Virus record (IMG/VR): IMGVR_UViG_3300029775_000206
Span: 1-64,000 of that record
DNA: 64,000 nt
Strand: one strand, 5' to 3'
Source of the DNA: an uncultured virus (IMG/VR IMGVR_UViG_3300029775_000206)
Taxonomy: Duplodnaviria > Heunggongvirae > Uroviricota > Caudoviricetes
Shown here: piece by piece, positions 1 through 63,261 of the stretch
Position numbering within the stretch: the first letter of the stretch is position 1
Layout: the number at the start of each line of letters is the position of its first letter
Made by a program: the position numbers and the translations under genes
Notes under the pieces: model-generated
What the model saw: the letters and a program-made list of their open reading frames with translations, nothing else
The model's database searches: none
Told to the model about the DNA's origin: nothing

Positions 1-56
1 GGCGTTTGGGTCAAATTTCGTCCGGCGTTTCCATCATTTCTTTTCCGGCGTTGACA
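1..56. mobile_element. End of an IS21-family-like insertion sequence, running off the window edge
   Basis: Minus strand from 56 reads TGTCAACGCCGG...AAACGCCGG...AAACGCC: a TGT terminus with repeated subterminal ACGCC(GG) motifs. GC content jumps abruptly and the McrB-like ORF stops just inside it. Confidence 0.7.
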
Positions 57-1458: not shown

Positions 1459-1462
1459 CTCA

Positions 1463-2905: not shown

Positions 2906-3828
2906 TCTCCTAATTCTAATAATACATCTTTAATCTTTTCTGCAACTGCTTGCGAAACATTAACAGTAACTGCATTTCCAAATTGCTTATATGCTTGTGA
3001 ATCAGAAACAGGGATTACAAAATCGTCATCAAATCCCTGCAGTCTCGCACATTCACGGGGAGTGAGACGCCTTACTCTACCATTTTGTGTAACATAATTA
3101 TCTTGGCAAGCTCTGTGCATTTTTGCCATAGTTGCACATAACGGTCTTGCTATTTCCAAATCAATTTCTGATTTAGCCTTATATCCACCCGTTCCATTAG
3201 ATAAGATGGTTGGCAATATCCTATCAGATAAAAAATATTTCTGATCAACATTGTGTTCCAATAGATCTTGCAATGTTAAATCAAGCTCCTGCTTTTCCGG
3301 AAACAAAAACTCTGCATTTTCATTTGCAAAACAAACGATATATGTTCTGTTTCTTGTTTGCGGAATACCATAATCAGCTGTATTCAATACATCTGTAAAG
3401 ACCTTATAACCCAAATCTTTTTCTAAGATATTTAAGATTGTTTTGAATGTCCTTCCTTTATCATGGGTGCGTAATGAACGTACATTTTCCAAAACAACTA
3501 CTTTTGGCTTTTCATTTTTATCTATTTTATATTTTATTATTTCTGCTATTCTAAAAAAAAGAGTTCCACGAGCGTCTTCAAAACCTCTTTTTTCACCCAT
3601 CATGCTAAACGGTTGACAAGGGAACCCACCTATTAAGACATCAAAATCTGGCAGTTCCTCAAGAGGGATATCGTTTATATCTCCAAGCACGATGTGGTCA
3701 CCAAAATTCTCCTTATATGTCTGAACAGCATATTTATCAAAATCATTTGCCCATACAATGTCATAGCCAGCATTTTGAAAGCCTTTATCTAAACCCCCAC
3801 ATCCACTAAATAGGGATAGAATTCTCAT
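2896..3828 (-). CDS. DNA (cytosine-5)-methyltransferase
   Basis: Motifs LFSGCGG, GFPCQPFS, ENV, QTRNR, QFGNAV. Confidence 0.95.
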   Translation of the reverse strand: MRILSLFSGCGGLDKGFQNAGYDIVWANDFDKYAVQTYKENFGDHIVLGDINDIPLEELPDFDVLIGGFPCQPFSMMGEKRGFEDARGTLFFRIAEIIKYKIDKNEKPKVVVLENVRSLRTHDKGRTFKTILNILEKDLGYKVFTDVLNTADYGIPQTRNRTYIVCFANENAEFLFPEKQELDLTLQDLLEHNVDQKYFLSDRILPTILSNGTGGYKAKSEIDLEIARPLCATMAKMHRACQDNYVTQNGRVRRLTPRECARLQGFDDDFVIPVSDSQAYKQFGNAVTVNVSQAVAEKIKDVLLELGEWA

Positions 3829-3834
3829 ATTTTA

Positions 3835-4017
3835 TTACTCCTTTCGGGACTTTATATACTCCCGTATCCACGTACCAATTTCAATTGAAGCTTTTTTCCC
3901 TTCGAGAGCCAATAATTCCATGAATTCTTTTTTGATTTCTGGTTCTATGGCTACTTCAATTTTGGCTGTTTTTACTTTACCGGGAGGTCTCCCACATATT
4001 TTTGATTTATTATTCAT
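3835..4017 (-). CDS. Small basic DNA-binding (RHH-like) protein, probable RM controller
   Basis: 60 aa, GRPP motif, GGAG RBS, first gene of the RM operon. Confidence 0.55.
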   Translation of the reverse strand: MNNKSKICGRPPGKVKTAKIEVAIEPEIKKEFMELLALEGKKASIEIGTWIREYIKSRKE

Positions 4018-4151
4018 AAGTGACTCCTCCAGGAATTAATCCTTATTATATAATGATTACATCAGGGTCTAAAATAGTATAGCATAGACTGTAGGAAATT
4101 TCAATCCCCCAAATCGACATGAATTTCGCGGTTAAAGTATGCAAATAGATC

Positions 4152-4255
4152 GTCAACTCAATTCTATTTTTGCAGTAATTCTATCCACTCGCCACATTTT
4201 TGACAGTAATTTCGTCAACTCAGTAGGCAATTAGTAACAATGTCCACTCAACCCT
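4152..4255. repeat. Four degenerate RTCMACTC repeats spaced 31, 31 and 28 bp
   Basis: gtcaactca 4152, atccactcg 4183, gtcaactca 4214, gtccactcaaccct 4242. Confidence 0.6.
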
Positions 4256-4387
4256 GTATTTTCGGGGTTTTAGATATGTTCTTACAATAAAAATATCCGT
4301 GACCTAGAACCCAGCTTGAATATGAGTTCAAAATCACGGAATTCCCTTTATATCAAGCACTTTTTCGCTTTTATTTATCAACCCTTG

Positions 4388-6288
4388 ATAGAGTAGAACA
4401 GTGGGTTTACCACCGTCCCCTCATCAAACCGTACGTGCGATTTTCCCGCATACGGCTTTCCGATATTCTTCTTCCTTCAGCATTCAGCCGCACATATTTG
4501 CTAGTCCTGCCTGTTTAGTCAATTCTCTGACCTTTGCTGCACTTCCTAGCCTATAATTGCGTTGTTTCTTCCGATTGTACCACCGAGTAAACTTGAAATT
4601 TATATACTTATCTATCTTCCATAACCATGGTCTGCTAAATCGTCTGGTATAATAGTTCCTCATGCCAATGATTTTAGGATTGAGTAGCTTCACCATCTCT
4701 TCCATACTTAGCAGCAGCTTGCTAGGACTGTTAAATACCTCTTTTATGTTAGCTCTCATTTTCTTCATAGCCTTCTTAGACGGTATCTGTTGTAGTGTCC
4801 AATACCACTGCCAGTTTTTATTTCTAAAACGCTGAAATCTATTATTGAAGCCAAGAAAATCAAAACTACCTTTACCAAAATACATATCAACCAGTCTTGT
4901 TTTCTCACTGTGAAGCGTTAGTTCCAGTTTTTCCATAATCCACTTCACAGCGCGCAAGGCTTCTTCTGCATGAGATAACCTCTTACACAATATCACAAAA
5001 TCATCTGCATAACGCACTAATTCACCCAGATGTCCAAAGGCTTTATTCCAATACACATCAAAATAATTCAGATATATGTTGGACAATAGTGGAGAAATAA
5101 CTCCACCCTGCGGTGCTCCCAGTATACTTTCACTGTACCATCCGTTTTCCAGCACTCCTGCTTTTAACCAACTATTTATCAGCTTTAATACTCTACGGTC
5201 AGTTATTCTTTGTTTGAGCAACAAAATTAGCTTATCATGGTTGATGCTACCAAAATAATCTTTTATGTCAGCATCTATTACCCATAGTGCACCACCTTTG
5301 TCGGACACTTCAAATATCCTGTCCATTGCTTGTTTAGCACTTCGTTTCGGTCTAAATCCATACGAACAGGGTTGAAAATCTGCTTCAAACACCGGCTCTA
5401 TCACTATCTTTGCCGCCATCTGTACTATTCTGTCCTTAATCGTAGGTATCCCCAATGCTCTTTTTCTACCATCTGGTTTTGGAATATAGCTTCGTCTGAC
5501 AGGCTTACACCGGTACTTCCCAGTCCTCAATTCTTCCGCTATTTCGCCCAGTAGTTTTTCTTCACCGTACGTTTTCACATCATCAATGCTGACTTTGTCA
5601 ATACCGCCTGTTCCACCATTCTGTTTTACCCGTTTCCATGCTTCTTCTAAGATATCATTACGGTATATCTTGTCATACAACGCATAGAACTTTCTCTTTC
5701 GGTCAGCTTTGGCTGTAAGGTATAGTCTGTTTTGGAAGTCTCGTACTTTTTCATGGGTGTTTATAGCTTTTTCGGCAATCACCGGCACCTACCTCCTTTA
5801 CAGACTTGAATAAAGTTGTGCCCCTTCCCTATGCACAGTTTTGTTGTCTGTACAATCCTTGGTACTATGAGCACTTCTGACTGCCTCTTTGCAGAAAGCA
5901 ACTTCGCTTTTGCTTATATGCTTCCTCTTTACAGTTTCCTGTGCAAAGTAGGCTCTCTCCAGTTCCGACAAATACTTTCCTGACGTGTCGTTACCTCTAC
6001 ACCGCAGGGTTCTTAGGTATTGCATTTAGGGTTCTTCATACCGTCTTCTGTCTTTGCTGTTGATGTCGCAGCTCGACTCCCTGTTGTTTCCTTTCGGAAA
6101 TGTAAATAACGGTGCGGCAGTATTCACTTTATGTTACAACCCGCCAGTTTGCCTGCTCCTTACGGAACATTCCGTAACGCTTCAACGCATAGATTACACC
6201 ATACGCTGGTTACTGACTAAGTGGCTGCCCTACCTTTACCACTGCAGGACTTTCACCTGCTAGCATTTGCCAGCTTAGCTGGACGCAC
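4388..6288 (-). mobile_element. Complete group II intron (~1.9 kb)
   Basis: 5' GTGCG at 6288; domain V GAAAGCCGTATGCGGGAAAATCGCACGTACGGTTT; domain VI ending ...CTACTCTAT at 4388; EBS1 loop ACATCAA (~6060-6066) complementary to the exon end TTGATGT. Confidence 0.92.
4484..5788 (-). CDS. ltrA: Group II intron reverse transcriptase/maturase without endonuclease domain
   Basis: RT0 region, RALGIPTIKDR, PQGGVISP, YADD, thumb/X domain; 434 aa, no HNH domain. Confidence 0.95.
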   Translation of the reverse strand: MPVIAEKAINTHEKVRDFQNRLYLTAKADRKRKFYALYDKIYRNDILEEAWKRVKQNGGTGGIDKVSIDDVKTYGEEKLLGEIAEELRTGKYRCKPVRRSYIPKPDGRKRALGIPTIKDRIVQMAAKIVIEPVFEADFQPCSYGFRPKRSAKQAMDRIFEVSDKGGALWVIDADIKDYFGSINHDKLILLLKQRITDRRVLKLINSWLKAGVLENGWYSESILGAPQGGVISPLLSNIYLNYFDVYWNKAFGHLGELVRYADDFVILCKRLSHAEEALRAVKWIMEKLELTLHSEKTRLVDMYFGKGSFDFLGFNNRFQRFRNKNWQWYWTLQQIPSKKAMKKMRANIKEVFNSPSKLLLSMEEMVKLLNPKIIGMRNYYTRRFSRPWLWKIDKYINFKFTRWYNRKKQRNYRLGSAAKVRELTKQAGLANMCG

Positions 6289-6443
6289 ACATCAATACGA
6301 CCGTCTCAACGTGGCTTGAGAGGACAGAACGAATGTCTTTCGAGCCGTCGGTTCTCGGAAACATATCCACTACATTTTTTGCACTATCGGTAGACGGGAA
6401 CATATCGACATAAAAATATGTAAACACACTCTTTGCGTTTAAA

Positions 6444-10280: not shown

Positions 10281-11846
10281 TCACACATCGATTTCGACAC
10301 CTGATTTGAACTCTACAGTAAGCTTACTATCAAATACCGTAACTTTTTCAATAAGCCTCCTTACCAATTGCTCATCATATTCCTCCAACTCGTAGGACTG
10401 CTCATTTAAGAAATCTGTCATCTCAGCGATTCTCTGCCTTTTTCCTTCACGCTCTGCATTTTCAACCAGTGCATTTTGCTTCAGTTCCCGCAAGCGATAT
10501 ATCTCATCAGCCACTTCGTTATAGTCATTTTTGGACTTTGCTTGTTTAAGAAGCTCCTTCTGCAATTCTTCCAATTTGCTGTCAATGTCATCAGTAGCAT
10601 TATCATTTTCCTCATTAAGTACAGCAGCTATGTTTTCCTGCAATGCCAGGAGGAAAGGTTCTTTGTTAGCCAAAAGTTCATTGATAGCCTTTACAACCGC
10701 TGTCTGCAATGTTTCCTCGTTAATGGTTGGGGAGGTACAGTCAGAATCCTTTTCCTCCAGGCGGCTGACACATCGCCAAACAATAGACTTGTAACCTCGG
10801 TTATTCCAGTGTACCCGGCGGTAAATGTCGCCGCACTCTCCGCAGTAAACAATACTAGATAAGGCATACTTACTGCTGTAAACTCGCTTTTTTCCGCCTT
10901 TGCCGCTTTGGATGTTTGCCCTCCGAACCATTTCCTCCTGCACCTGCATATAAAGGTCACGGGGGATAATAGGCTCGTGGCTGTTTTCTACATAATATTG
11001 GGGAACGATGCCGTTATTCTTGACTCGCTTTTTGGAAAGAAAATCAACAGTATATGTCTTTTGCAAAAGAGCATCTCCGATGTACTTTTCATTCTGCAGT
11101 ATCTTTTTCAGTGTTTCAGGTCTCCATTTTGCTTTGCCTGCCGCCGTAAGAACACCGTCTGCCTCTAAGCCTCGTGCTATTTGTAAAAGGCTGGCTCCCT
11201 CAAGGTATTCTCTGTAAATTCTTTTTACAATCTCTGCACCCTCAGGGTCAATCACCAGATGCTTGTTTTCATCTTTAGTGTATCCGAGGAAACGGTTATG
11301 GTTGACTTGAACTTCACCTTGCTGATATCGATATTGAATGCCCAGCTTAACATTCTGACTTAAGGATTGGCTCTCCTGTTGCGCGAGGGATGCCATAATG
11401 GTCAGCATGATTTCGCCCTTGGAATCCATCGTGTTGATATTCTCTTTCTCGAAAAATACAGCGATATTCTCATCCTTTAACTGACGAATATATTTTAGAC
11501 AGTCCAAAGTATTTCGAGCAAATCGGCTGATGGATTTTGTAATTATCATATCAATATTTCCTGCCATACACTCATCAATCATCCGGTTAAATTCTTCACG
11601 CTTTTTTGTATTGGTACCCGTGATGCCATCATCTGCAAAGATACCTGCAAACTCCCATTCCGGATTCTTTTTAATGAACTCTGTGTAATGGGCAATCTGT
11701 ACCTCATAACTTGAAGCCTGCTCATCACTATCTGTGGAAACACGGCAGTAGGCTGCCACTCGTATTTTCTGTTTGCTTTCATTATTCTTATTATTTCCGA
11801 CTCGTTTAATTGCCGGAATCACCGTTACATTCTTACTTACCGCCAT
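10281..11846 (-). CDS. Large serine recombinase
   Basis: YCRVST catalytic motif, KSISRFARN, recombinase domain, CGECG zinc ribbon, coiled coil. Confidence 0.95.
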
Positions 11847-11849
11847 CTG

Positions 11850-12263
11850 CTACACCTCGCTTTCTATCAGGCTGTAAGCATATTCCGCCTGCTTGAATGG
11901 GTTATCATATTTCTGTTCCAGGGGTTTTGCTTTGAACTCCACGGCATAGTCTGCTTCTGGCGCATCCTTTGGCTCCCATATCCTTCCCAGCCTTTCGGCT
12001 CGTTTTTGTTTCTCTTCTCCGGCTTTTTCGAAGGTGTCCTCATCAATAATCGGAGGATAGAACTCATCACCAAGGTATTGCTTATTCTGCAGCATTCTGC
12101 CTGCAGTGGCATGATAGCAGTCTATTCCGGCCTTTTTAGCCGCATCCTTTAAAGAAAGTCCAGCCAAATATCCGGCAAATAACTCCTTTACTTGAACTGC
12201 CGCCGTTTCATTTATCACAGCCATTCCGTTTTCAATTCTATATCCATAGGGTGTATGACCCAT
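11850..12263 (-). CDS. Small recombinase-domain-only protein
   Basis: PYGY...MLQNKQYLG...PPII; no catalytic domain. Confidence 0.8.
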   Translation of the reverse strand: MGHTPYGYRIENGMAVINETAAVQVKELFAGYLAGLSLKDAAKKAGIDCYHATAGRMLQNKQYLGDEFYPPIIDEDTFEKAGEEKQKRAERLGRIWEPKDAPEADYAVEFKAKPLEQKYDNPFKQAEYAYSLIESEV

Positions 12264-13829
12264 CTAATTCACCAACCTTTCTCTCAGTGTGATTCCACAC
12301 TTTAATTCAAATCCAATCTCTTCTCGTGAATAGACAATAATCCGCTCTACATAATTTTCAAACAGCTCATTCTCATAAGCTGTGAGCATTTTGGATTTAG
12401 CAGCAAACTTGAGCAGATGGCTGACCTCCTCTACTTTTGCAAGATTGCCGTTTACTGAATGAGCAAGCTGCTCCTTTTCAGCCAGCAGCCTTGCGCTCTC
12501 TGCTGCCAGTGAATTCTTTTCTTTATTGAACAGGGCAGGTTCCAGATATCCTTTGGTCATTAAACCTGTCAGCATCTGACTTTGCTCTATGTTGTTTTCA
12601 ATCTTGTTTTCCAGTTCCTCAATTCTGCGATAACTTGCTGTGTTGTTTTGATTACGCAGCCCATCTAAAAGCGGTCTTAATATGAACTTCTGACCGAAAA
12701 TGAGTTTATTCATCATCGTAACAAACGCCGTCTTTATATCATCATCTCGAATAAACTGCATGGAACATTCCGTTATCTGCCTTATGTGCTTACTGCAGCA
12801 CCAAGCGATATATTTTCTTGCTCCGGATGAATGAACCCGCCTTTTAAAGGTACTGCCACATTCAGAGCAGATGATTTTGCCGGAAAATGAATATCGGTTT
12901 TGATACTTGTTATTGCGCTTTTCAATTCCCTTTTCCTTTGCTCTCTGGCTGATAACGGCATCAGCTGCATCAAAATCTTCATGGCTGATAATCGCCTCAT
13001 GGTGGTTTTCCACCAGATACATATTCTTCTCACCATAATTGGTGTGTCTATTAAAATGGCTGTCCGTATAGGTCTTTTGTAGAATAGCATCACCAGTATA
13101 TTTTTCGTTGCAAAGAATCCCTCGGATTGTTCCAGCAGTCCATCGGCCGCCTTTTTTTGTAGGAACATTCCGATGATTAAGGTCATCCGCAATTTTCTGA
13201 GTCCCCTTGCCTGATAATGCCTCTGCAAAAATAAACTTCACAACTTCCGCCTGCTTGGGATTCACAATCATCTGACCGTCTATGTTTTTATAGCCGTATG
13301 GTGGATATGATACCTTGAAAGTTCCGTTCTGAAAGCGTCTTTGAATTGCCCATTTGTTATTTTCTGAAATGGAAATTGACTCACTTTCTGCAAGTCCACT
13401 TAAAATGGAGAGCATCAGCTCGCTTTCCATTGATTGGGTATTTATATTTTCTTTTTCAAAATAAATGTAAACATCAAGGTCTATCAGCTTGCGAACCATC
13501 TCAAGACAGTCTGCAGTATTTCTTGCAAATCTGCTGATGGACTTTGTAATTATTAAGTCAATCTTACTATTTTCACAGTCTGATATCATTCTAAGCAGTT
13601 CAGAACGGTTTTCTTTTTTCGTACCGCTGATACCCTCGTCATAATAAAGGCCTGCGTATTCCCATTCTGGGTTAGCCTTGATATAAGCTTCATAGTGGAC
13701 CTTTTGTGCCTCTAAGCTGACAAGCTGCTCATCACTATCTGTAGAAACTCGGCAGTAGGCAGCTACTCGCAGCTTTGGCTTGATAAAAGAATCGGCCATA
13801 TTTCCTTCTATTTTCGTTATCTTTTTCAT
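12264..13829 (-). CDS. Large serine recombinase
   Basis: [20 protein letters not shown]. Start taken at MKKITK, which follows a GGAGGTG RBS. Confidence 0.95.
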   Translation of the reverse strand: MKKITKIEGNMADSFIKPKLRVAAYCRVSTDSDEQLVSLEAQKVHYEAYIKANPEWEYAGLYYDEGISGTKKENRSELLRMISDCENSKIDLIITKSISRFARNTADCLEMVRKLIDLDVYIYFEKENINTQSMESELMLSILSGLAESESISISENNKWAIQRRFQNGTFKVSYPPYGYKNIDGQMIVNPKQAEVVKFIFAEALSGKGTQKIADDLNHRNVPTKKGGRWTAGTIRGILCNEKYTGDAILQKTYTDSHFNRHTNYGEKNMYLVENHHEAIISHEDFDAADAVISQRAKEKGIEKRNNKYQNRYSFSGKIICSECGSTFKRRVHSSGARKYIAWCCSKHIRQITECSMQFIRDDDIKTAFVTMMNKLIFGQKFILRPLLDGLRNQNNTASYRRIEELENKIENNIEQSQMLTGLMTKGYLEPALFNKEKNSLAAESARLLAEKEQLAHSVNGNLAKVEEVSHLLKFAAKSKMLTAYENELFENYVERIIVYSREEIGFELKCGITLRERLVN

Positions 13830-13890
13830 CCTCTCACCTCCACTTCGGTAGGTCACATATTACCTCTGAAGCCTTTATATATCAACGACT

Positions 13891-38003: not shown

Positions 38004-39397
38004 GGCTGTATCTCTAATAGTTCTTTATAGGAAAACTGCTTATCATCCCTAATGCAAAACACACCGTCTTCGACTCCTACTTGTTCAATAAATCTCTTTA
38101 CAATGACGTCGCAGTATTTTTCATCCAGTTCGATGGTATAGCATATTCTGTCCGTCTGCTCACAGGCGATAAGTGTAGAACCACTGCCGCCAAAAGGATC
38201 AAGTACAATGCAATTTGACAAACTGTGTAGTGGTATAGTGAACTTGTAACACTCCTGCCTAATGGATTACAATATCTACTTAGAAAAGGAGTACGCCATN
38301 NNNNNNNNNTCGGACGCCTTATGAGACAAGGTATGGATTGAGTCAATTTAGACAGTAGCGTTACAAAAATGCTTGACCATTACACTGCTATTTAAAATTG
38401 GATAGGCTACCAATGCTACCGGTTTCATAGTCGGATGGTCAGCGTTTTTCTTTGGCTTTTCAAATTCCCATATAGTAGTCTGCTTTCTATCGGCATACCA
38501 ATTGTGTTTTCCAGACTTCTTCCAACCGAAAAGAACAGGCTCATGCTGCCATTGATAAGGAGAGCGGCCAAGAACAAGCGACTGCTTTTTCCAGATGCAA
38601 GTACCGGAGAGATAAAATCCGGCTTCCGAGAATGCCTTTCTGAAATTCAAACCTTCAGTATCTGCATGAAATACATAAATAGAAGCATCCTTCGCCATTG
38701 CCACTTCGGTATTCTTAAACGCCTCACGCAGAAAATCGTAGAACGCTTCATTTCCCATATTGTCGTTCTTAATTTTACCCGCCGAACCTTCATAGTTGAC
38801 GTTGTACGGAGGGTCGGTTACAACAAGGTTTGCAAGTTTGCCATTCATCAGGATATTGAAAGTGTCAGCCTTGGTGGAATCACCGCAGACGAGCCTGTGC
38901 TGTCCGAGTTTCCAAACATCACCTTGTTTGGTGAGTGCAGGCTTTTGCAGCTCAGCGTCCACATCGAAGTCATCATCATGAATACCATCCTTAACCGAAT
39001 CCTTAAACAACGCATCAAGTTCGGCTGGTTCAAATCCGGTGAGGGATACGTCAAAGTCTGCACCTTGCAGGTCAGCAATCAAAAGCATCAATTTGTCTTT
39101 ATCCCAATCACCGCTTATCTTATTAAGGGCGATGTTGAGTGCCTTTTCTTTTTCCTCATTCATTTCGATAACCACACACTCAACTTCGGTGATTCCCATA
39201 TCAAGCAGTACCTTCAAACGCTGGTGACCGCCAACTACATGAGAAGTGGTCTTATTCCATATAACGGGTTCAACATAGCCGAACTGCTCGATGGAACGTT
39301 TCAGCTTTTCGTATTCCGGGTCACCGGGTTTCAAATCTTTACGAGGATTATAATCGGCTGGAATCAACAACTTAGTTTTCAGTTTTTCTATCTGCAT
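38000..39397 (-). pseudogene. ParB-N + N6/N4 DNA methyltransferase split by an IS
   Basis: YNPR, GGHQR, TDPPY, HPTMKP...ILNSS, then LSNCIVLDPFGGSGST. Removing 38226-38387 restores the frame. Confidence 0.88.
38226..38384 (+). mobile_element. IS3-family-like insertion sequence, body collapsed into an N gap
   Basis: TG...CA ends with imperfect IRs (TGTAGTGGT../TGTAATGGT..), 3-bp target duplication CTG, AAGGAG RBS followed by AT at the gap, transposase-like tail RTPYE after the gap. Confidence 0.8.
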
Positions 39398-55568: not shown

Positions 55569-56717
55569 ATGAAACTGTTATATTCAAATATCCTGCCCCT
55601 TGCTACATTAGAGGGCCAAGATACAATTATTGACTGTTTTAATGAACAAATCGCAAAATCGGACCGGGTTGAAATTGCGGTTGGATACATCTCTCGTGCT
55701 TCCTTGGAAGAACTGGACCACCTGGTCGAAGAACACAATATATCTAGTATATGCCTTACTATTGGTATGTACTTCATTGAAGGTATGCCAGAAGGATCCT
55801 TCAATGAAGCTTTACAACTGAACAAAAAATGGAGAGAGTCAGGCATTGGTGAAATTAGGATTGTAAAGGCATTTAAGTACCATGGTAAATTATACTGTTT
55901 CTATAAAGATGGACAACCTTTTTCAGCTATCATTGGTTCTGCAAACTTAGGTGTAATCAAATTAGATGCCAATAACCGCCGACAGTATGAAATCTCATCA
56001 ATTACTGATGATGCTGCTGAATGCAGAGAAATTGCAGATTTTATAGAGAGACTAAAAATACAGAATTGCTCAGATAATATTGCCAGCATAACAGGAATGC
56101 CAATAATCAGGGAGGTTAACACATCACTTAGTGGCATTGATATGGTAACACAAATTCCCCAAACTGGTGTACAGCTTTATGCACAGCATAAAACAGGTAT
56201 TTCATTTGTTCTGCCGATAAAAGTTCCTGCTTATGATGAGCGGCACATGGACGATGGCAAGCATTTTACGAAATCAAATATTAATGTCAGCTATGCCGCA
56301 CCGAGAAGCAAGAGAAAATCCCGTGATTGGTATGAGACCCAGCTGACCGTGAGCAAAGAAATAACTCGCTCCGAGGGATATCCTGAAAAGAACAAGACTT
56401 TCTTTGTTGTTACCGATGACGGCTATTGGTTTAAGGCTCATACTACAAGTGATGGAAATAAACAGTTCAGTGCTGTTGGCGATGAACTTATTCTTGGCCG
56501 TTGGATTAAGGGCAGGCTTGCGGCTGCAGGACTTGTAACGCCTGTGAATGATACCCAAGCTGATACAGACCGTAAGGGCATGATTACGAAAGAAATGTTG
56601 CAAGCATATGGCTGCGATAGTCTTGTGCTTTCTAAAACCGACCAGAAAGCATTGGACGAAGACGGCTCTGAACTTGATGTATGGGTTTTATCATTTGAAA
56701 CAACTGCTAACGAATGA
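55569..56717 (+). CDS. PLD-family restriction endonuclease (NgoFVII/NgoAVII/CglI-like)
   Basis: AVGY, HGKLY, IGSANL; B3-like C-terminal region VVTDDGY.F. Confidence 0.82.
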   Translation: MKLLYSNILPLATLEGQDTIIDCFNEQIAKSDRVEIAVGYISRASLEELDHLVEEHNISSICLTIGMYFIEGMPEGSFNEALQLNKKWRESGIGEIRIVKAFKYHGKLYCFYKDGQPFSAIIGSANLGVIKLDANNRRQYEISSITDDAAECREIADFIERLKIQNCSDNIASITGMPIIREVNTSLSGIDMVTQIPQTGVQLYAQHKTGISFVLPIKVPAYDERHMDDGKHFTKSNINVSYAAPRSKRKSRDWYETQLTVSKEITRSEGYPEKNKTFFVVTDDGYWFKAHTTSDGNKQFSAVGDELILGRWIKGRLAAAGLVTPVNDTQADTDRKGMITKEMLQAYGCDSLVLSKTDQKALDEDGSELDVWVLSFETTANE

Positions 56718-58585
56718 GAGGTGCGGCTATGCAATACTTAAAAACATACCTTCAAAAGATTACAGACCGAGGCAATGTAAAATTAGCGGAGTCCATTTTA
56801 AAAACTGCTGAAGATGTTGGAAATCAGCATATTCGCAATTTTTCATTTACAAGTCATGAGATTGGTCTGTTGTTTGGCAATGTACAATCTGGAAAAACTG
56901 GTCAGATGTTTGGCATCATGTGCAAAGCCGCAGACTTAGGTTTTCCTGCGTTTATCTTACTCACTACGGATAATGTTGCTTTACAGCAGCAAACCTTGGA
57001 ACGTGTCAAAGACGATTTAGACGGTTTCTGTATTTGCGGTGAAAATGACTCAAGGCTGTTTGTTGAGAATAGCCTTGTCAAGCCAGCGATTGTCGTTTTA
57101 AAGAAAAATTCAAGAATGCTGAGACTGTGGGCAAATGTATTTAATTCCACGGGCTTCATGAAGGGAAATCCTCTCTTCATAGTTGACGACGAGGCAGATG
57201 CCGCTTCCTTGAATACACTTGTAAACCGAAATGGTCAGTCATCAATTAATAGGTATTTGGATTCTATAAAGAATGGTGCATCAAGCAGTTTATATATGCA
57301 GGTTACCGGTACTCCCCAGGCAATCTTACTACAGACACTTGCTTCCGGGTGGCATCCATATTTTACATATTACTTCCGTCCCGGCGATGGCTATTTAGGC
57401 GGGGACTTTTTCTTCCCGACAAGCGGTAAACCTGAATGCATTGATTATCTTGAATCAATCAAACGACCGACAAGAAGTGTTGTTATACGCCATCTTGCTG
57501 TTTCTGCTCAGATTTTAGCATCTAACGGCAAAGTATCAAATTGCCTTATACATCCGAGTGTACGTCAAGCTGTTCACCAGCGCTTTGCTGACGACGTCAC
57601 AAAAGAACTAAATTGGTGTATTGAACATATCAATGATGAATTCATCACAGAATTACAAACCCACTATGATGCTTTAGCACCCAACAAAAGCGAGAAACTT
57701 CCGTTTGATGTTATCTATAAAACTGCTAAGAACTTGATGGAAAACAAATGTATAAAAATTCTTGTTATGAATGGCAAGACTGATGTTGAGAGTCCCGAAT
57801 ATGCAGCAGGCTGTAATTTTATCATCGGCGGAAACACTCTGGGCCGAGGTGTAACTTTTCCAGGGCTGCAGACAATTTACTATACAAGAACAAGCAAAAA
57901 GCCTCAGGCTGACACTATGTGGCAGCATAGCCGGATGTTCGGTTATGACAGAGACCCTGGCATGATGAAGATATTTATAGATGAACAACTTTATAAACTA
58001 TTTGCAGATATTAATGCTACTAACAATGCCATCATTGCTCAAGTAGAGCAAGGAATTGATAATATTAAAATCTATTATCCGGTTGGATTGAATCCAACTA
58101 GAAGGAATGTTCTTGACAACAAACGAGTCAATATTCTCTCTGGTGGAACAAACTATTATCCGTTCTATCCAGATAATGACTCTATAGAGGATATATCAAA
58201 ACTATTGGAGCCTTTCTCTGATGATGAACCTTATTACCAAGTAAATTTGAGACTGATTAAGAAAATTTTGACCCATATTATTGCCAGTCCGGATTTTAAG
58301 TTGGACGCATTCCTTTCTGTCATTGACACATTTCTTTCAGAGCAGCCTGCGGGACAGGGTATTTTGATAGTTAGAAGAGAAAGAAATGTAGCACAAGGCA
58401 CGGGTGCATTATTGTCTCCAAACGACTGGAAACTTGGCGGCACTTTCCCCAACAAAGTTGTCCTTACCATGTATCAAGTAACTGGTACTAAGGGATGGGG
58501 CGGAAAAGCTCTCTGGGTGCCAAATATTAAACTTCCTCATGATACAATGTATTATGATGTGTGTGAAGATAATACAGAAGCATAG
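56714..58585 (+). CDS. SF2 ATPase with Z1 domain (N.NgoAVII/H.CglI-like)
   Basis: GNVQSGKT, DDEAD.ASLN, TGTPQA, GG..LGRG.T..GL, Q..RMFGY. Confidence 0.88.
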   Translation: MRGAAMQYLKTYLQKITDRGNVKLAESILKTAEDVGNQHIRNFSFTSHEIGLLFGNVQSGKTGQMFGIMCKAADLGFPAFILLTTDNVALQQQTLERVKDDLDGFCICGENDSRLFVENSLVKPAIVVLKKNSRMLRLWANVFNSTGFMKGNPLFIVDDEADAASLNTLVNRNGQSSINRYLDSIKNGASSSLYMQVTGTPQAILLQTLASGWHPYFTYYFRPGDGYLGGDFFFPTSGKPECIDYLESIKRPTRSVVIRHLAVSAQILASNGKVSNCLIHPSVRQAVHQRFADDVTKELNWCIEHINDEFITELQTHYDALAPNKSEKLPFDVIYKTAKNLMENKCIKILVMNGKTDVESPEYAAGCNFIIGGNTLGRGVTFPGLQTIYYTRTSKKPQADTMWQHSRMFGYDRDPGMMKIFIDEQLYKLFADINATNNAIIAQVEQGIDNIKIYYPVGLNPTRRNVLDNKRVNILSGGTNYYPFYPDNDSIEDISKLLEPFSDDEPYYQVNLRLIKKILTHIIASPDFKLDAFLSVIDTFLSEQPAGQGILIVRRERNVAQGTGALLSPNDWKLGGTFPNKVVLTMYQVTGTKGWGGKALWVPNIKLPHDTMYYDVCEDNTEA

Positions 58586-58599
58586 GAGGACAAGCATGG

Positions 58600-59568
58600 A
58601 TGTTTACCAATAATATAGCACAAAGGATTTTATTTGCTCCTCCACTCCGAGGAGCAGATACTTTATTAATATTAAGTGGATATGCTACTCCTAATATGGC
58701 ATCGTGGCTAATTAAGAATTTTCAGGAGCAAAATATGCACCTTGTCAATATTTCACTGCTTATAGGCATGGTACCTTATGATGGGTTAAGTGTTCCTATA
58801 CACGAGGGCTTTAAGGAACTCCATGGCAAGGCATACCCAAATGCCGTGGATAGCTTTTCCTGCAGTTATGTTTGCGAAAACCCTCCGGTTCATGCAAATT
58901 TGTATATTTGGTTAAAAGGTGAATTGCCAATGCAGGCATATACAGGTTCTGCTGATTTTGTGCAGAATGCATTTATTCCATCTCGAAAAGAAATCATGGA
59001 ATGCTGTGATCCAGAAGAAGCATATAAATTTTTTCAGGAAGTTGAGGCAAATTCCATCTATTGTAACCATGCAGAGGTCGAAGATCATATCGTTCTCCGT
59101 CCAACACATCAAATTCTAGATGCTGAAAATAAGCCAATAACCACTTTGGCTGGAGAAGGTATTATTTCCACAACACTGTCTCTTCTTACAAATAGAGATG
59201 ATATTGGAGAAAGGTCCGGTTTAAATTGGGGACAACGCAAGGGCAGAAATAAAAACCAAGCATATATCCATCTTCCTGCAAAAATTGCAAGAAGTGGTTT
59301 CTTCCCGCTTGATAAACAGCATTTTACTGTTGTTACAGACGACGGTCACACGCTTCTTTTAAGGGTCGAGCAGCAAAACAACAAGGCAATTACAACACCT
59401 CTTAGCAATGCTCAGCTTGGAGAATACTTCCGAAACCGTTTAGGCCTTGGAAATGGTGCATTCGTAACAAAGCAAGATTTACTGAACTATGGAAGAACGG
59501 ATGTTACTTTTTACAAAATTGATGACGAAACATTTTATATGGATTTTTCTCATCATCCATCTGTGTGA
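58600..59568 (+). CDS. Second NgoFVII-like PLD protein with a degenerate active site
   Basis: LSGYA, HANLY, TGSADF; SGLNWGQ and VVTDDG in the C-terminal region. Confidence 0.75.
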   Translation: MFTNNIAQRILFAPPLRGADTLLILSGYATPNMASWLIKNFQEQNMHLVNISLLIGMVPYDGLSVPIHEGFKELHGKAYPNAVDSFSCSYVCENPPVHANLYIWLKGELPMQAYTGSADFVQNAFIPSRKEIMECCDPEEAYKFFQEVEANSIYCNHAEVEDHIVLRPTHQILDAENKPITTLAGEGIISTTLSLLTNRDDIGERSGLNWGQRKGRNKNQAYIHLPAKIARSGFFPLDKQHFTVVTDDGHTLLLRVEQQNNKAITTPLSNAQLGEYFRNRLGLGNGAFVTKQDLLNYGRTDVTFYKIDDETFYMDFSHHPSV

Positions 59569-59581
59569 GGGGGAATTTCAT

Positions 59582-60004
59582 TTGTCAGATAATCATTCCA
59601 AAGAAATTCGAAGCATGAATATGTCACATATCCGAAGCACAAATTCTAAGCCGGAAGAAATTGTTCGGAAGTACCTGTTTTCCCGCGGTCTGCGATACAG
59701 AAAAAATGTACGCACTCTTCCTGGCTGCCCCGATGTGGTCCTGCCCAAATACAAAACTGTAATATTTGTAAATGGGTGCTTTTGGCATCATCATGACTGT
59801 GGTCGTTTTGTATGGCCGTCAACCAATGAAGAATATTGGCATAATAAAATTGACAGAAATATCAAGCGTGACAAAAAGAATACCAAACTGCTCGAAGAAC
59901 AGGGATGGAACGTTCTTGTTATTTGGGAATGTCAGCTAAAAAAGTCTGTTGCCGAATCGAATTTGAACGCACTGTACAACAGCATTACTGCACAGCAAAA
60001 ATAA
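59582..60004 (+). CDS. vsr: Very short patch repair endonuclease
   Basis: NMS.I.S..SKPE, LPG.PD, GCFWH.H, IWEC. Confidence 0.92.
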   Translation: MSDNHSKEIRSMNMSHIRSTNSKPEEIVRKYLFSRGLRYRKNVRTLPGCPDVVLPKYKTVIFVNGCFWHHHDCGRFVWPSTNEEYWHNKIDRNIKRDKKNTKLLEEQGWNVLVIWECQLKKSVAESNLNALYNSITAQQK

Positions 60005-60052
60005 AAAACAGCAAAGTGTAAGTCTTTTCAAACTTACTGCTTTGCTGTTTTT
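60003..60052. terminator. Bidirectional terminator between vsr and the methyltransferase
   Basis: AAAAAACAGCAAAG...CTTTGCTGTTTTT inverted repeat. Confidence 0.75.
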
Positions 60053-61104
60053 TACTCATTGATATTTGGTTCTGTTGATTCATAAGGAATTCCGGCAAAA
60101 CTTCTCAGTATTGCTTCAAAGATAATTTGTGCTCCTCTGCTTGGAACAGCCATACCAATTTGTTTTCTGACACTTTCCTTGCTTCCAATAAATCTGTAGG
60201 TATCCGGAAAGGTCTGAAGTCTTGCCCGCTCTCTATTAGTCAAGGCTCGTGGCTCTTCCCAATGATATATATGTGTCCCGCCTCCGCCGCTTCCGGTTAC
60301 TGTATAAGATGGCTTAGTAGGATCAAGGCGCTTATAAATCTGGCTTATTCTTGCACCCGTTATATTAAGCTGGAGGTCTTCCGGCAAATCAGCTGTAAAA
60401 GCATTCTGCCCGGGAAGAATATGCTGCAGTCTTCTAACAACGGTTGCCGATTGCTTCGTTAATTCATTGTTATATGCATCCCTTGGAATAGGAGGATTTT
60501 CTATTGCGTTTCTGCAGGTATTATCAATTCCGGCATAAGGTGCTGTTGATGGAACTCTAAATTCAATATTGATATCATTACGTATACCAACAATTATCAA
60601 ACGGTGTCTTGCCTGAGGTATTCCATACTCCTCAAACTTATACAGATGAGGTGTAATCGTATAGCCAGCCCCTCTCAGTTCATTTAGAATCTTAGTAAAG
60701 GCCTTACCATCATTTGCGTTTCTAAGTCCGCCTACATTCTCTGCTAAAAACCACTGTGGCTTAAAGGTTTTTAAAGCTTTGACGCCATATGAATATAAGG
60801 GACCATATACCCCATCCATACCTTTTTGTTCACCAACAACACTATAATCATTGCAAGGGAAACCAAACGCCAATGCGTCAATCGGGGCTAATTTGGACAT
60901 ATCAAATTTACGAATATCCTCATGGTAAACGGTATTAGGTGCATCGGGGCAAATATTTAATCTATAAGTTTCACAGGTATCCGCATCATAATCATTTGCC
61001 CATTGATGTACAATTCCAAAATCGTCATTATTTATATCTGCATTTATGGCTCCCCAAGCAATCCCGCCCGGACCACAGAACAATTCTCCAAGCCTATAAA
61101 TCAT
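60052..61104 (-). CDS. DNA (cytosine-5)-methyltransferase
   Basis: LFCGPGG, GFPCND, ENV, QARHR, QIGMAVP. Confidence 0.93.
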   Translation of the reverse strand: MIYRLGELFCGPGGIAWGAINADINNDDFGIVHQWANDYDADTCETYRLNICPDAPNTVYHEDIRKFDMSKLAPIDALAFGFPCNDYSVVGEQKGMDGVYGPLYSYGVKALKTFKPQWFLAENVGGLRNANDGKAFTKILNELRGAGYTITPHLYKFEEYGIPQARHRLIIVGIRNDINIEFRVPSTAPYAGIDNTCRNAIENPPIPRDAYNNELTKQSATVVRRLQHILPGQNAFTADLPEDLQLNITGARISQIYKRLDPTKPSYTVTGSGGGGTHIYHWEEPRALTNRERARLQTFPDTYRFIGSKESVRKQIGMAVPSRGAQIIFEAILRSFAGIPYESTEPNINE

Positions 61105-61436
61105 ATCTCATCAACCTTCCTTTTTCTGTTGAGAAAATCGATTTGTGCTTGGATGTATTGCATTTCTTCACCATCAAGGGAAGAAACCCCTTGAAACACA
61201 AACTGATATTCTTTAATATCTTCTTCACTCAAGTAACCTGCTAACTCATAGAGCGGTATCAAATGAATGTTATATAAATTTGCAAGTTTTTTTAAATCAT
61301 CGGGAGTATAATCAATCTGCCCTCTTTCCATCTTGCTAAGTCTTGAATCTGTTATACCGGTTATTTCATATACCTTTTTGAGGCTCAAACCGCTTTTTTC
61401 ACGACTTTCTTTCAATCGATCGCCTAACTCAGACAT
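61101..61436 (-). CDS. XRE-family HTH regulator, probable RM controller
   Basis: LG.RLK..RE..GLS...GI..S.LS.MERG. Confidence 0.85.
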   Translation of the reverse strand: MSELGDRLKESREKSGLSLKKVYEITGITDSRLSKMERGQIDYTPDDLKKLANLYNIHLIPLYELAGYLSEEDIKEYQFVFQGVSSLDGEEMQYIQAQIDFLNRKRKVDEI

Positions 61437-61721
61437 TCTATCACCTCTACAGTAGGATAACATATTCGCTGCGAATAATCAAGACTTTTTTAACATTTGC
61501 TGCATGTCTGCAGCATTACACTAATAGTTTACAAATCTCCCTAATGGAAATTATTCAAGTCTGAAAGCCAAAGTATCTCTTTTTATTCACAAATTTCGAC
61601 ACAGACATTTCGGCCTATCTGTCATCTATTCTATCTCCTCAACCCTATGAAGTTATCTAATCTGTCTACTCAACCCTACGTACATTTTTGCGGTCGACTT
61701 GTTTCCTCAATAAATAAAAAC

Positions 61722-61789
61722 AAGGCTTTTCGAGGTTAAAAGTATCTGCTCAACAACTGGCAGAAAACCTTCCAACCTCGAAAAGCCTT
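61722..61789. repeat. 16-bp inverted repeat just downstream of the rlmD tail (terminator-like)
   Basis: AAGGCTTTTCGAGGTT ... AACCTCGAAAAGCCTT. Confidence 0.6.
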
Positions 61790-61814
61790 TATTCATCAGT
61801 GTTCAGAGTATTCC

Positions 61815-61880
61815 TTATTTCTCCATCCTTGACATCAATACAACACACTCAACGTGGCTTGAGAAAAGCACCTGAATGTC
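61815..61880 (-). other. Right attachment junction with rlmD 3'-end replica (HVECVVLMSRMEK*)
   Basis: GACAT-N12-CTCAA-GCCACG-TTGAG-N12-ATGTC symmetry; 17-bp identity with the left junction. Confidence 0.85.
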
Positions 61881-62142
61881 TGGTTCCCGGACACATTTCC
61901 GTTCGTTTGCGGAAACTGCTCAATGCCGAAAAACGGCGTTTTTACAGGTGCTCTCAGTATGCGGGAATATGTCCAGGTGCTATTTCTACCTATATTACGG
62001 CGGGCAGGAGGGATGCCATCGTCTCAACCTGCTCCTCTGCAGTTCATCAAGCCATTATCAAGGTCTCAACCCCAGCTGCCGCTAACTTGGTCGGCATCTT
62101 GGTCGCTTAACTTGGTCGGTCAGCGATCAAGTTATTGCTGAC

Positions 62143-63261
62143 CTACTGCTGCCTGAACCGGTATTTCCCTTTGCCGAATCCGGAAACTGGCTCAGTGATA
62201 CCCTGTTCTGCCATTTCCTTCAAAAGCTCAGAAGCCCTTGACGCTTTCATATCAAGCACGCGCATGACATCCGACCGTCCAAAGATCGTCTGACCTTGAA
62301 ATTCTTCGCGAAGTTTCAGGATATGCTCCGTCGTTTTAGCTGTAAATCTATTGTCAATATCCGCTTTTAGAGCCTCAATGTCCGATTTTCCATCTTGAAT
62401 GTCCGGTTTTTCCGTTTCAATGTCCGGTTTTTCCGTTTCCTTGAACGCTCCGCTGATATGCAATGTCCGGTTGTGAAGCGGATTGTGCTCGCCAAGCAGG
62501 AGGTTCCTTAAAAACAGTTCCAGATATTCCGTCGTCTCATGGATGCCTTTTGTGAAGTCATTGTAGTTAGCGCGAACAAGCGAATTGCGGAAATACCACG
62601 CATTTTCAGCGAAGATGTCATTCGTTACGTCAAAACCGAGAGTCCGCAAATACTTGATGAAGAACACCGCCGTGGTCCTGGTATTACCTTCACCGAAAGC
62701 ATGAATCTGCCAGAGCCTTGAAACGAAAAACGCAAGATGTCGGGTGATCTCATCCATGGAAAGACCCCGATATGAAAACTTCCGCTCCTCGGAAAAATCA
62801 TACTCCAATGTCGCTCCGAGCTCAGTCGCACTGCCATAAAGCACCGTCGCTCCGTCGAGCACCCATTCCTTCTTCGTGATGTTATAATCACGAATGCGGC
62901 CAGCATGTGGATAGATGCCCGTAAACAATCTTCTGTGAATTGACAGGTACTCATTCGGTGTAAAACTGAATGCCTGCTCGGACAATATCTCTGCGATTCT
63001 GGCAGAAACCTTGTCAGCCTCTTCCGTGCGGTCACCTGCATCACGGGATGGATTCTCCTTGTAATAGCTCTGCAGAAGCGCATTCGCTTCTTTGAAAGAA
63101 ATCTCTCCCTCGATATTGCGAACCGCAGTATGCATCAGATAATCAGATGTCTTCAGGCCATCAACTGCCTGAAGTCCGATGGCCGTATGCCATGCATAGC
63201 CCTTATCCCGCTTATCCGGTTCGGACTCCTTGATATATTCCTTGAAAGGGTCTTTATCCAT
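62143..63261 (-). CDS. Fic-domain protein with C-terminal HTH
   Basis: HAFGEGNTRT Fic motif; KPDI-type repeats; winged-HTH-like end GKGKYRF. Confidence 0.88.
   Translation of the reverse strand: MDKDPFKEYIKESEPDKRDKGYAWHTAIGLQAVDGLKTSDYLMHTAVRNIEGEISFKEANALLQSYYKENPSRDAGDRTEEADKVSARIAEILSEQAFSFTPNEYLSIHRRLFTGIYPHAGRIRDYNITKKEWVLDGATVLYGSATELGATLEYDFSEERKFSYRGLSMDEITRHLAFFVSRLWQIHAFGEGNTRTTAVFFIKYLRTLGFDVTNDIFAENAWYFRNSLVRANYNDFTKGIHETTEYLELFLRNLLLGEHNPLHNRTLHISGAFKETEKPDIETEKPDIQDGKSDIEALKADIDNRFTAKTTEHILKLREEFQGQTIFGRSDVMRVLDMKASRASELLKEMAEQGITEPVSGFGKGKYRFRQQ

What the first reader, a model, noticed from the sequence alone, without database searches (positions are those of the whole stretch)
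61882..62073. Array of divergent 'ghost' rlmD target half-sites next to the right junction
Seen: on the minus strand, upstream of the crossover core, are three non-coding 18-21-mers that translate like the RlmD motif VD(M/Q)FPxT: LDIFPHT (61956-61976), IEQFPQT (61904-61924) and EMCPGT (61882-61899). Further out are two copies resembling the right half, GVETLIMA* (~62061-62073) and QVETMASL (~62017-62031). Known: elements of this type integrate between FPxT and HVE of rlmD/rumA. Inference: the element end holds a library of attB-like half-sites. These could be scars captured from earlier hosts' rlmD alleles, accessory recombinase sites, or decoys against competing elements. I know of no description of such arrays, and this is my best candidate for an undescribed system.
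Basis: partly seen in the sequence, partly recalled or inferred. Interest (0 to 1): 0.85.

Follow-up and report, generated by a model that had tools for sequence, protein, structure and literature searches.

The report
Repeat-rich recombinase arm between stacked elements
The stretch is the end of one mobile island fused to the start of a prophage, and its repeats that mimic the target gene are kept in related elements in a way that hints they help the recombinase.

Summary
All five strings are at the stated coordinates. Scored with matrices built from 54 real rum/rlmD 3' ends, LDIFPHT ranks 1st, QVET 3rd and IEQFPQT 5th of 163,752 positions in the 81.9-kb record. EMCPGT and GVET score at background.

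The record has no rlmD. Window 61855-62142 (minus strand) is the conserved P-side arm of an upstream defence island. At the His codon of 'HVE' it joins the P' arm of a Phi-m46.1-like prophage. The same phage sits in a real rum gene in L086, with the break at that codon. The phage's own arm, with the same repeats, is at 6312-6409.

The repeats are a family trait. In 44 arms chosen without reference to them, 30 have two or more left-half-like units, 9 have one and 5 none. One of 44 has a reverse-strand hit, and 0.3% of shuffles have any. The units are as conserved as the crossover core. Their distances to the crossover follow a 10.2-nt period.

Stacking at rum is known. Phased target-like repeats beside a large serine recombinase site appear undescribed. 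They are probably accessory binding sites, but that is unproven. The scar and decoy readings are not supported.

The parts
62083..62142 (-). Distal part of the conserved arm. It holds two 12-nt direct repeats (62083-62094, 62108-62119) and a short inverted repeat, and runs up to the stop of the Fic gene.
   Evidence: Repeats. The same segment is conserved in L279 and L250.
62059..62073 (-).
   Evidence: Right-half matrix -9.3 bits. Its place and motif are conserved in L245, L279 and L250.
62008..62031 (-).
   Evidence: 13.8 bits, rank 3 of 163,752. Conserved in L245, L279 and L250.
61953..61976 (-). Left-half-like unit U1 (LDIFPHT), 122 nt from the crossover.
   Evidence: 23.2 bits, rank 1. 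It aligns with U1 of all the other arms.
61901..61924 (-). Left-half-like unit U2 (IEQFPQT), 70 nt from the crossover.
   Evidence: 7.9 bits, rank 5. It aligns with U2 of the other arms.
61877..61893 (-). It is not a half-site.
   Evidence: Stem-loop. Left-half matrix -7.7 bits. A counterpart is seen only in the arm subfamily (L114, L279).
61855..61881 (-). Core P half-site of the upstream island's arm, ending in the first two bases of the His codon (61855-61856). This is the inferred crossover.
   Evidence: The boundary between constant arm and variable flank falls here in all the arms. The break against L086 is also here. Coordinates were read.
61815..61856 (-). Core P' half-site of the prophage. 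It doubles as a replacement rum tail, HVECVVLMSRMEK plus a stop codon.
   Evidence: 28.6 bits on the right-half matrix. In L086 the identical sequence is fused in frame to a real rum gene.
61722..61789 (-). Long hairpin followed by a T-run, a likely terminator for the restored rum gene.
   Evidence: 21-nt arms, 90% complementary. Conserved in the aligned P' arms.
61693..61716 (+). Inverted left-half-like unit on the P' side.
   Evidence: 5.9 bits on the plus strand. It is visible in 8 of the 9 aligned P' arms, by my reading. By matrix, 9 of 16 tandem junctions have one, against 2 of 25 host-type junctions.
61621..61679 (-). Two direct repeats of about 27 nt upstream of the XRE-type regulator gene.
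   Evidence: family D1. Conserved in the P' arms. They do not score as right half-sites.
61101..61463 (-). XRE-family helix-turn-helix regulator, the first gene of the prophage.
   Evidence: Pfam HTH_3 and HTH_31.
10281..13856 (-). Recombinase module with two large serine recombinases (530 and 521 aa, 37% identical). Both have the catalytic-serine motif. A 137-aa ORF holding only the 'Recombinase' domain lies between them.
   Evidence: Pfam; blastp and translations.
6312..6409 (-). The prophage's own P arm: U1 at 6386-6409, U2 at 6347-6370, core half-site at 6312-6338.
   Evidence: 14.9 and 18.4 bits. It aligns with the right-hand array and with the arms downstream of related recombinases.
4388..6288 (-). 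Group II intron inside the rum-tail mimic of the next island's P' arm. The flanking exons are 6289-6313 and 4387 downwards.
   Evidence: Rfam RF02003 and RF00029. Reverse transcriptase and maturase domains. The identical arm plus intron is in L081, 2700 of 2700 nt.

Best explanation
Window 61855-62142 (minus strand) is the conserved P-side attachment arm of an upstream island that carries Fic, McrBC and other defence genes. At the first two bases of the His codon of 'HVE' it is joined to the P' arm of a Phi-m46.1-like prophage. This is an internal joint of elements stacked one after another at the 3' end of rum/rlmD, shown here without the gene itself. Each P' arm encodes a substitute rum tail, so the occupied site still resembles the target and can take the next element. 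The FPxT-like units, and in this arm subfamily the two VET-like units, are built-in parts of the arm. The inference is that they are accessory binding sites for the two recombinase paralogs, and perhaps for the small Recombinase-domain protein. On that view, subunits bound at the phased target-type half-sites contact the complex at the crossover core and influence synapsis or direction. Shown: the identity of the joint, the family-wide conservation, the single orientation and the phasing. Inferred: protein binding and its effect.
For: Joint. L086 holds the same phage (6495 of 6500 nt identical) fused in frame to a real rum gene, and identity with the window begins at the His codon. In the 18 of 80 recombinase loci that hold the arm, it lies 2.6-9 kb downstream of the recombinase gene on the same strand and is followed by a different host rum tail in each. 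The window's left copy is followed by an island plus intron that L081 holds, 2700 of 2700 nt, behind a different arm.

Repeats. 13 of 16 distinct arms have two or more left-half hits of at least 8 bits, against 0.00125 hits per shuffled arm. A second sample was picked only by the core and the first right-half codons. It gave 44 usable distinct arms, of which 30 have two or more hits, 9 have one and 5 none. One of 44 has a reverse-strand hit, and 0.3% of 4400 shuffles have any.

Constraint. In nine diverged arms, mean pairwise identity is 0.73 for U1, 0.73 for U2 and 0.70 for the core. It is 0.53 and 0.40 for the spacers and 0.22 upstream of U1. Hit-to-crossover distances are periodic at 10.2 nt. 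Rayleigh R is 0.75 for 82 hits and 0.62 for 30 unique distances, with 0 of 2000 nulls as high. For 13 spacing classes R is 0.73, P 0.016 over a 7-15 nt scan and 0.005 within 10.0-10.6 nt.

Other points. An inverted unit lies on the P' side in 9 of 16 tandem junctions, against 2 of 25 host-type junctions. The window's VET-like pair recurs in L245, L279 and L250. Both recombinase paralogs keep the catalytic motif.
Against: No binding or recombination data exist. Studied large serine recombinases need only 40-50 bp sites and no auxiliary DNA (PMC3783163, introduction passage).

The arms share ancestry, so counts of arms are not independent events. MAFFT tends to line up similar motifs, which can inflate identity inside the units.

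At the 8-bit threshold, 5 of 44 arms have no hit and 9 have only one. The spacing classes used were drawn after seeing the data, and P = 0.016 is modest.

EMCPGT and GVET fail the matrix test. Right-half-like hits occur in only 1 of 20 arms of the first set, the window's own.

The upstream island shows no recombinase gene in the 14.5 kb before the arm, so this particular copy may be inert. The record has no rum gene, so the stack is inferred from relatives.
Confidence: 0.55

Rival explanations
1. Inherited relics. An ancestor of this arm family duplicated or captured pieces of a rum 3' end. The units persist by descent, without function, inside an arm of which only the core is used.
For: U1 and U2 with their tails look like a 39-nt tandem duplication (sequences; my reading). 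Studied enzymes of this class need no auxiliary DNA. Some arms have lost detectable units, 5 of 44. All the arms are related.
Against: The units are as conserved as the core, while the spacers have turned over. Conservation stops abruptly just upstream of U1, next to variable cargo. Only one of 44 arms has a reverse-strand hit. The distances are helically phased. None of this is expected of neutral relics.
Confidence: 0.22
2. Scars of earlier hosts. Each unit is a piece of a former host's rlmD allele, picked up at past integrations and carried along as a growing library.
For: Internalised old joints do exist. In phi-SsuFJSM5_rum a complete arm plus a foreign rum tail lies about 110 nt inside the present junction. 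In phi-SsuSSJ28_rum a complete joint lies 4.7 kb inside the record, behind resistance cargo.
Against: Conservative exchange at a 2-bp crossover moves no left half-site of the target into the element. The units lie in the constant arm at the same or phased distances across 30 of 44 arms. They do not vary as host alleles do. The host-specific part begins only after the crossover.
Confidence: 0.06
3. Sites for another protein. The units bind a directionality factor, a phage regulator or a host nucleoid protein, and resemble the target only in part.
For: A 137-aa ORF with only the 'Recombinase' domain lies between the two recombinase genes. The two 27-nt repeats on the P' side sit in front of the regulator gene and do not score as half-sites. 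A conserved A-run lies between U1 and U2.
Against: The likeness to the target's left half extends over about 18-20 nt and reaches true-site scores of up to 28 bits. This is most simply explained by the protein that reads the target itself.
Confidence: 0.12
4. Chance, or decoys. Either the strings are accidents of six-frame reading, or they are baits that soak up the recombinases of competing elements.
For: Two of the five units, EMCPGT and GVET, score at background. No test of the decoy idea was possible.
Against: LDIFPHT, QVET and IEQFPQT rank 1, 3 and 5 of 163,752 positions. Shuffles give 0.3% of arms with any hit. Helical phasing relative to the element's own core points to cooperation with that core rather than to baiting.
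Confidence: 0.05

Closest known systems
Phi-m46.1-group prophages integrated at the 3' end of rum in streptococci (PMC4288039, passages read; PMC5053989, passages read)
   Same: Same gene order as phi-SsuFJSM5_rum: regulator, a roughly 620-aa protein, replication genes, SAM synthetase, methylases, packaging, tail, lysis, recombinases, then cargo. Same target gene end. The same arm, with its two FPxT-like units, is present in S. suis and S. gallolyticus phage records.
   Different: The passages I read describe only an 18-bp core site and mention no arm repeats. The present S. suis junction in phi-SsuFJSM5_rum lies at a different point of the gene, about 110 nt beyond this arm. The window's phage carries restriction-modification and defence cargo rather than resistance genes.
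Tandem accretion of integrated elements at rum/rumA and rplL (PMC5053989, PMC7168690, PMC4701971, PMC4120198: passages read)
   Same: Several elements in one orientation at one target, separated by att-like joints. Here there are at least three, with joints at 61855/61856 and 6312/6313.
   Different: Those papers deal mostly with conjugative elements that have a single serine integrase, whose site lies inside the integrase gene (PMC4701971) or at a GA dinucleotide (PMC4120198). Here there are two paralogs, a site 4-9 kb downstream of them, and a crossover at the His codon.
SCCmec and CcrAB at the 3' end of rlmH/orfX (recalled, no call)
   Same: Two large serine recombinase paralogs. The target is the 3' end of an rRNA methyltransferase gene. 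The element supplies a substitute gene end, and stacked elements are separated by repeated target-like sequences.
   Different: Different gene and recombinase lineage. I recall no phased arrays of extra half-sites for SCC. Membership was not tested here.
Accessory sites of small serine resolvases (res sites II and III of Tn3/gamma-delta; Sin site II with directly repeated half-sites) (recalled, no call)
   Same: Extra copies of the recombinase's own half-site motif next to the crossover site, in fixed geometry.
   Different: Those are small resolvases acting within one molecule. Here the enzymes are large integrase-type proteins, the units mimic the partner (target) site, and binding is unproven.
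Canonical large serine integrase sites (A118/LI, Bxb1, phiC31) (PMC3783163, passages read)
   Same: A quasi-palindromic core of about 50 bp around a 2-bp crossover, with outer and inner motifs on both sides (my reading).
   Different: Canonical sites need no auxiliary DNA. This family keeps 100-285 nt of conserved arm with 2-3 target-like units on one side and an inverted unit on the other.

Membership tests
Attachment-site arm of a large serine recombinase element | Recombinase genes with Resolvase, Recombinase and zinc-ribbon domains in the element that carries the arm | tested here: met
   Met for the prophage's own arm at 6312-6409, which has two such genes at 10281-13856. In 18 of 80 related loci the arm lies downstream of the recombinase on the same strand. 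For the arm under study no recombinase gene is seen in the 14.5 kb upstream.
Attachment-site arm of a large serine recombinase element | A sharp boundary between constant element sequence and variable flank at a short crossover | tested here: met
   All aligned arms end at the same point, and different rum tails follow. Identity with L086 and L081 starts or stops there.
Attachment-site arm of a large serine recombinase element | Recombination at the site by the cognate enzyme | not testable with these tools
   This needs in vivo or in vitro assays.
rum/rlmD-targeting prophage (Phi-m46.1 group) | Integration in the 3' end of rum, with the gene's end replaced by element sequence | tested here: inconclusive
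   No rum gene is in this record (PF05958 search). The same phage is fused to rum in L086, and relatives are in L101, L102 and L166.
Tandem accretion of integrated elements | Two or more elements in one orientation, separated by joints made of one element's end and the next one's start | tested here: met
   The joints at 61855/61856 and 6312/6313 are homologous. Each pairs a P arm with a P' arm.
Accessory recombinase sites (res-like or arm-type) | Extra recombinase-binding motifs in fixed geometry beside the crossover site | tested here: inconclusive
   At sequence level the units are present, conserved, all in one orientation and phased. Binding could not be tested.
Scars of former host alleles | Units vary like host alleles and have no fixed place in the arm | tested here: not met
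   The units lie in the constant arm at fixed or phased distances. Only the flank after the crossover is host-specific.

The most novel reading that the evidence does not exclude
This rum-targeting family would be the first natural large serine recombinase system with a higher-order attachment site. Phased target-type half-sites lie on the P arm, an inverted one on the P' arm and, in one subfamily, right-half-like units further out. They would be read by two recombinase paralogs and perhaps by a stand-alone Recombinase-domain protein. The resulting complex would set direction or efficiency, much as arm-type sites do for lambda integrase or accessory sites for resolvases.
Probability: 0.4. Interest if true: 0.8.

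Novelty: new variant of a known kind. Interest (0 to 1): 0.62.

Why it matters
Large serine integrases are valued as genome-engineering tools because they are thought to need only two short sites and no auxiliary DNA. A widespread natural family that keeps phased, target-like repeats beside its crossover site would mean some of these enzymes use extra DNA contacts. That could point to new ways of controlling direction or efficiency.

There is also a practical point for annotation. Many prophage calls in public virus collections stop right after the recombinase gene. They therefore miss 2.6-9 kb of cargo, which holds defence genes in this window's elements and resistance genes in the streptococcal records, and they miss the true end. 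The arm described here marks that end.

Finally, a repeated target-gene tail inside a contig marks a joint between stacked elements. It is not a broken gene.

Tried and rejected
- A Pfam search for rlmD in the whole record found nothing at E <= 10, so the 'right junction' is not a junction with the gene.
- An exact 25-nt search for the window's U1 in the viral collection found no match. A degenerate 18-nt pattern found two, L245 and L246.
- The idea that the units are coding was dropped. The frame runs through the left copy in the window but has stops in relatives.
- The idea that the units are alternative crossover points was dropped, because every junction seen breaks at the core.
- I asked whether the 27-nt repeats before the regulator gene are right half-sites. 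They do not score on the right-half matrix.
- Rfam found nothing credible in 61300-62300, only one match below threshold.
- The promoter scan found none there.
- The end of the phi-SsuSSJ28_rum record shows no rum tail, so that record's right boundary could not be used.
- Literature searches for arm repeats or accessory sites of large serine recombinases and for rum att sites found no description of such repeats. I saw only listings plus passages of seven papers. A motif-string search returned 171 papers, and the 10 listed were unrelated. Supplements were not opened.
- A look-up of the scan's earlier notes by place and by sequence returned nothing.
- No structure or complex prediction was run.

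Full report
**The observation**

To test them against chance I collected 78 rum/rlmD loci from named Firmicutes genomes. From these I extracted 54 distinct 3' ends and built two weight matrices, covering 24 nt to the left and 24 nt to the right of the His codon of 'HVE'.

Scanned over both strands of the 81.9-kb record, 163,752 positions, the units score as follows:

| Unit | Matrix | Bits | Rank of 163,752 |
|---|---|---|---|
| LDIFPHT | left half | 23.2 | 1 |
| QVETMASL | right half | 13.8 | 3 |
| IEQFPQT | left half | 7.9 | 5 |
| EMCPGT | left half | -7.7 | 263 |
| GVETLIMA | right half | -9.3 | 1203 |

True left-half sites score 16.5 to above 31 bits. Three units therefore stand above background by themselves. 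GVET is rescued by homology, as shown below. EMCPGT is a 17-nt hairpin-forming spacer.

**What surrounds it**

The window is the first 64 kb of an 81.9-kb virus record, and the record has no rlmD at all. Reading the minus strand from right to left gives this layout:

- A defence island with McrBC, helicase, methylase, AAA_13 and Fic genes, at 76.5-62.1 kb.
- The non-coding stretch under study, 62142-61464.
- A siphophage. It opens with an XRE regulator and a restriction-modification cassette. Replication, packaging, tail and lysis genes follow. It ends with two large serine recombinases and a small Recombinase-domain ORF (13856-10281).
- Four unknown ORFs.
- A second rum-like stretch at 6409-6289.
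- A group II intron.
- Another island with methylases.

The two rum-like stretches are homologous to each other, and so is the sequence that follows them.

**Identity of the stretch**

A profile of four copies found the same structure in 18 of 80 loci that encode relatives of the recombinase. It is always on the recombinase strand and 2.6-9 kb downstream of its stop. Most of the other loci end right after the gene.

In all of these a constant arm ends at one point, and a different rum tail follows in each. This is the P arm of an attR-type junction. The crossover is inferred to lie at the first two bases of the His codon.

The other side was seen directly. L086 carries the same phage, 6495 of 6500 nt identical, fused in frame to a real rum gene. 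Its identity with the window begins at that codon. L101 and L102 show the same for relatives.

The P' arm encodes a substitute tail (HVECVVLMSRMEK plus a stop). It then carries a terminator-like hairpin, an inverted left-half-like unit and two 27-nt direct repeats before the regulator gene.

Window 61855-62142 is therefore the P arm of the upstream island joined to the phage's P' arm. It is an internal joint of a stack and not a junction with the gene. The phage's own P arm is at 6312-6409. It is joined to the P' arm of a third element, and L081 holds that element with its intron, 2700 of 2700 nt, behind a different phage arm.

Stacking at rum is well documented in streptococci (PMC5053989, PMC7168690, PMC4701971, PMC4120198; passages read).

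**The repeats are a family trait**

I ran this test on two samples.

- In the first set, 13 of 16 distinct arms have two or more left-half hits of at least 8 bits in the 200 nt before the crossover. Shuffled arms give 0.00125 hits each.
- The second sample was chosen only by the core and the first codons of the right half, so without regard to the repeats. It gave 58 loci and 52 distinct arms.
- Eight of the 52 were set aside because the arm was short or no rum-like right half followed. These were L251, L254, L255, L264, L265, L267, L278 and L299.
- Of the remaining 44, 30 have two or more direct-strand hits, 9 have one and 5 none. One of 44 has a reverse-strand hit. Of 4400 shuffles, 0.3% have any hit.

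The window's arm belongs to a subfamily (L279, L250, L245, and more distantly L257, L304, L260, L114). In this subfamily the arm is longer. It also keeps the pair of VET-like units 42-43 nt apart and the distal direct repeats up to the Fic stop. By the right-half matrix, however, only the window's QVET unit scores well. Of the 20 arms of the first set, only the window's own has such a hit.

**Signs of constraint**

In nine diverged arms, mean pairwise identity is as follows:

| Segment | Mean pairwise identity |
|---|---|
| U1 | 0.73 |
| U2 | 0.73 |
| Core half-site | 0.70 |
| Spacer 1 | 0.53 |
| Spacer 2 | 0.40 |
| Upstream of U1 | 0.22 |

Conservation starts abruptly at U1, next to cargo that differs from locus to locus.

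The distances of all hits to the crossover cluster near 49, 60, 70, 80, 90, 100, 110, 120, 132, 154, 201 and 212 nt. They are periodic at 10.2 nt.

- Rayleigh R is 0.75 for 82 hits and 0.62 for 30 unique distances. None of 2000 null sets reaches these values.
- Collapsed to 13 spacing classes, R is 0.73. P is 0.016 for a scan of 7-15 nt and 0.005 within 10.0-10.6 nt.
- The window's own U1 and U2 lie 122 and 70 nt from the crossover, in two of these classes.
- On the P' side, an inverted unit is present in 9 of 16 tandem junctions, against 2 of 25 junctions with host DNA.

**Interpretation**

Conservative exchange at a 2-bp crossover cannot carry the target's left half into an element. The units also sit in the constant arm rather than in the host-specific flank. 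The 'scar library' reading therefore fails.

Neutral relics of an old duplication would not be expected to match the core in conservation, keep one orientation and stay in helical phase. The likeness to the target's left half runs over about 18-20 nt and reaches true-site scores. This points to the protein that reads the target.

My best reading, at about 55%, is that the units are accessory binding sites for the two recombinase paralogs. The paralogs are 37% identical and both keep the catalytic motif. The 137-aa Recombinase-domain protein may bind too. Bound subunits on one face of the helix would contact the complex at the core.

This is inference. No binding data exist, studied enzymes of the class need no auxiliary DNA (PMC3783163), the arms are related, and the phasing test is modest at class level.

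**Limits**

- The copy under study belongs to an island with no recombinase gene in the 14.5 kb before it, so it may be inert.
- The right end of the record is a GC-rich phage-like segment in the opposite orientation, and rum is not in view.
- The order of arrival of the stacked elements is inferred from the model that each P' arm regenerates a usable target.
- Feature coordinates were read by hand from the rulers.
- I did not open any paper's supplements. Att-site tables there may bear on what has been described.

**Verdict**

The setting, stacked serine-recombinase elements at rum, is known. The conserved, phased, target-like repeats beside the crossover site appear to be undescribed, as far as my searches reach. 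They would be a new variant of a known kind.

Noticed in passing
window 4388-6288 (minus strand): A group II intron lies inside the substitute rum tail of the downstream island's P' arm. Rfam finds D1-D4 and D5-D6, and a reverse transcriptase/maturase ORF is at 4484-5788. By my reading, joining the exons restores a tail reading HVETVVLMSRVDK plus a stop, the usual P' signature. The identical arm plus intron is in L081 (2700 of 2700 nt). Similar introns at the same point are visible in L268 and L302.
   Followed up: partly
window 10281-13856: There are two large serine recombinase paralogs (37% identical, both with the catalytic-serine motif) with a 137-aa ORF between them that has only the 'Recombinase' domain. 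This resembles neither the single rumA integrases nor the full triplets described for streptococcal conjugative elements (PMC4701971).
   Followed up: partly
loci L006-L085: Many virus-collection contigs end exactly 9 nt after the recombinase stop. Those prophage calls omit the 2.6-9 kb of cargo and the true end seen in longer loci. L245 ends exactly at the inferred crossover.
   Followed up: no
window 55569-61104: A restriction-modification cassette sits at the phage's head end, between the regulator and the replication genes. It has two NgoFVII-like endonuclease ORFs, a Z1-domain protein, a Vsr mismatch endonuclease and a C5 methylase. L086 carries the same cassette (6495 of 6500 nt).
   Followed up: no
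record 62143-76483 (L244): The upstream island is a run of defence-type genes: Fic, McrC, an EVE-AAA_5 McrB-like protein, T5orf172-ResIII, an Eco57I-type methylase, a fragment similar to the MmeI methylase domain, and an AAA_13 ATPase.
   Followed up: no
record 76700-81899: A second phage-like segment (DUF2800, Enc34-type SSB, HNH, start of a family A polymerase) lies on the opposite strand. Its GC is 53-61%, against about 45% next to it. It could be a nested insertion or an assembly chimera.
   Followed up: no
L001 (MN270276) 1-6160 and L003 (MN270263) tail: In S. suis phage records the same arm occurs as an internal joint behind blocks of resistance genes. In one record it lies about 110 nt inside the present junction, together with a foreign rum tail. 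Old joints are thus carried along with cargo.
   Followed up: partly
window 38300-38309: A run of ten N lies inside the phage, between methylase genes.
   Followed up: no
window 4434-4457 (plus strand): A 7.2-bit left-half-like hit falls inside domain V of the group II intron. I take it for chance.
   Followed up: no
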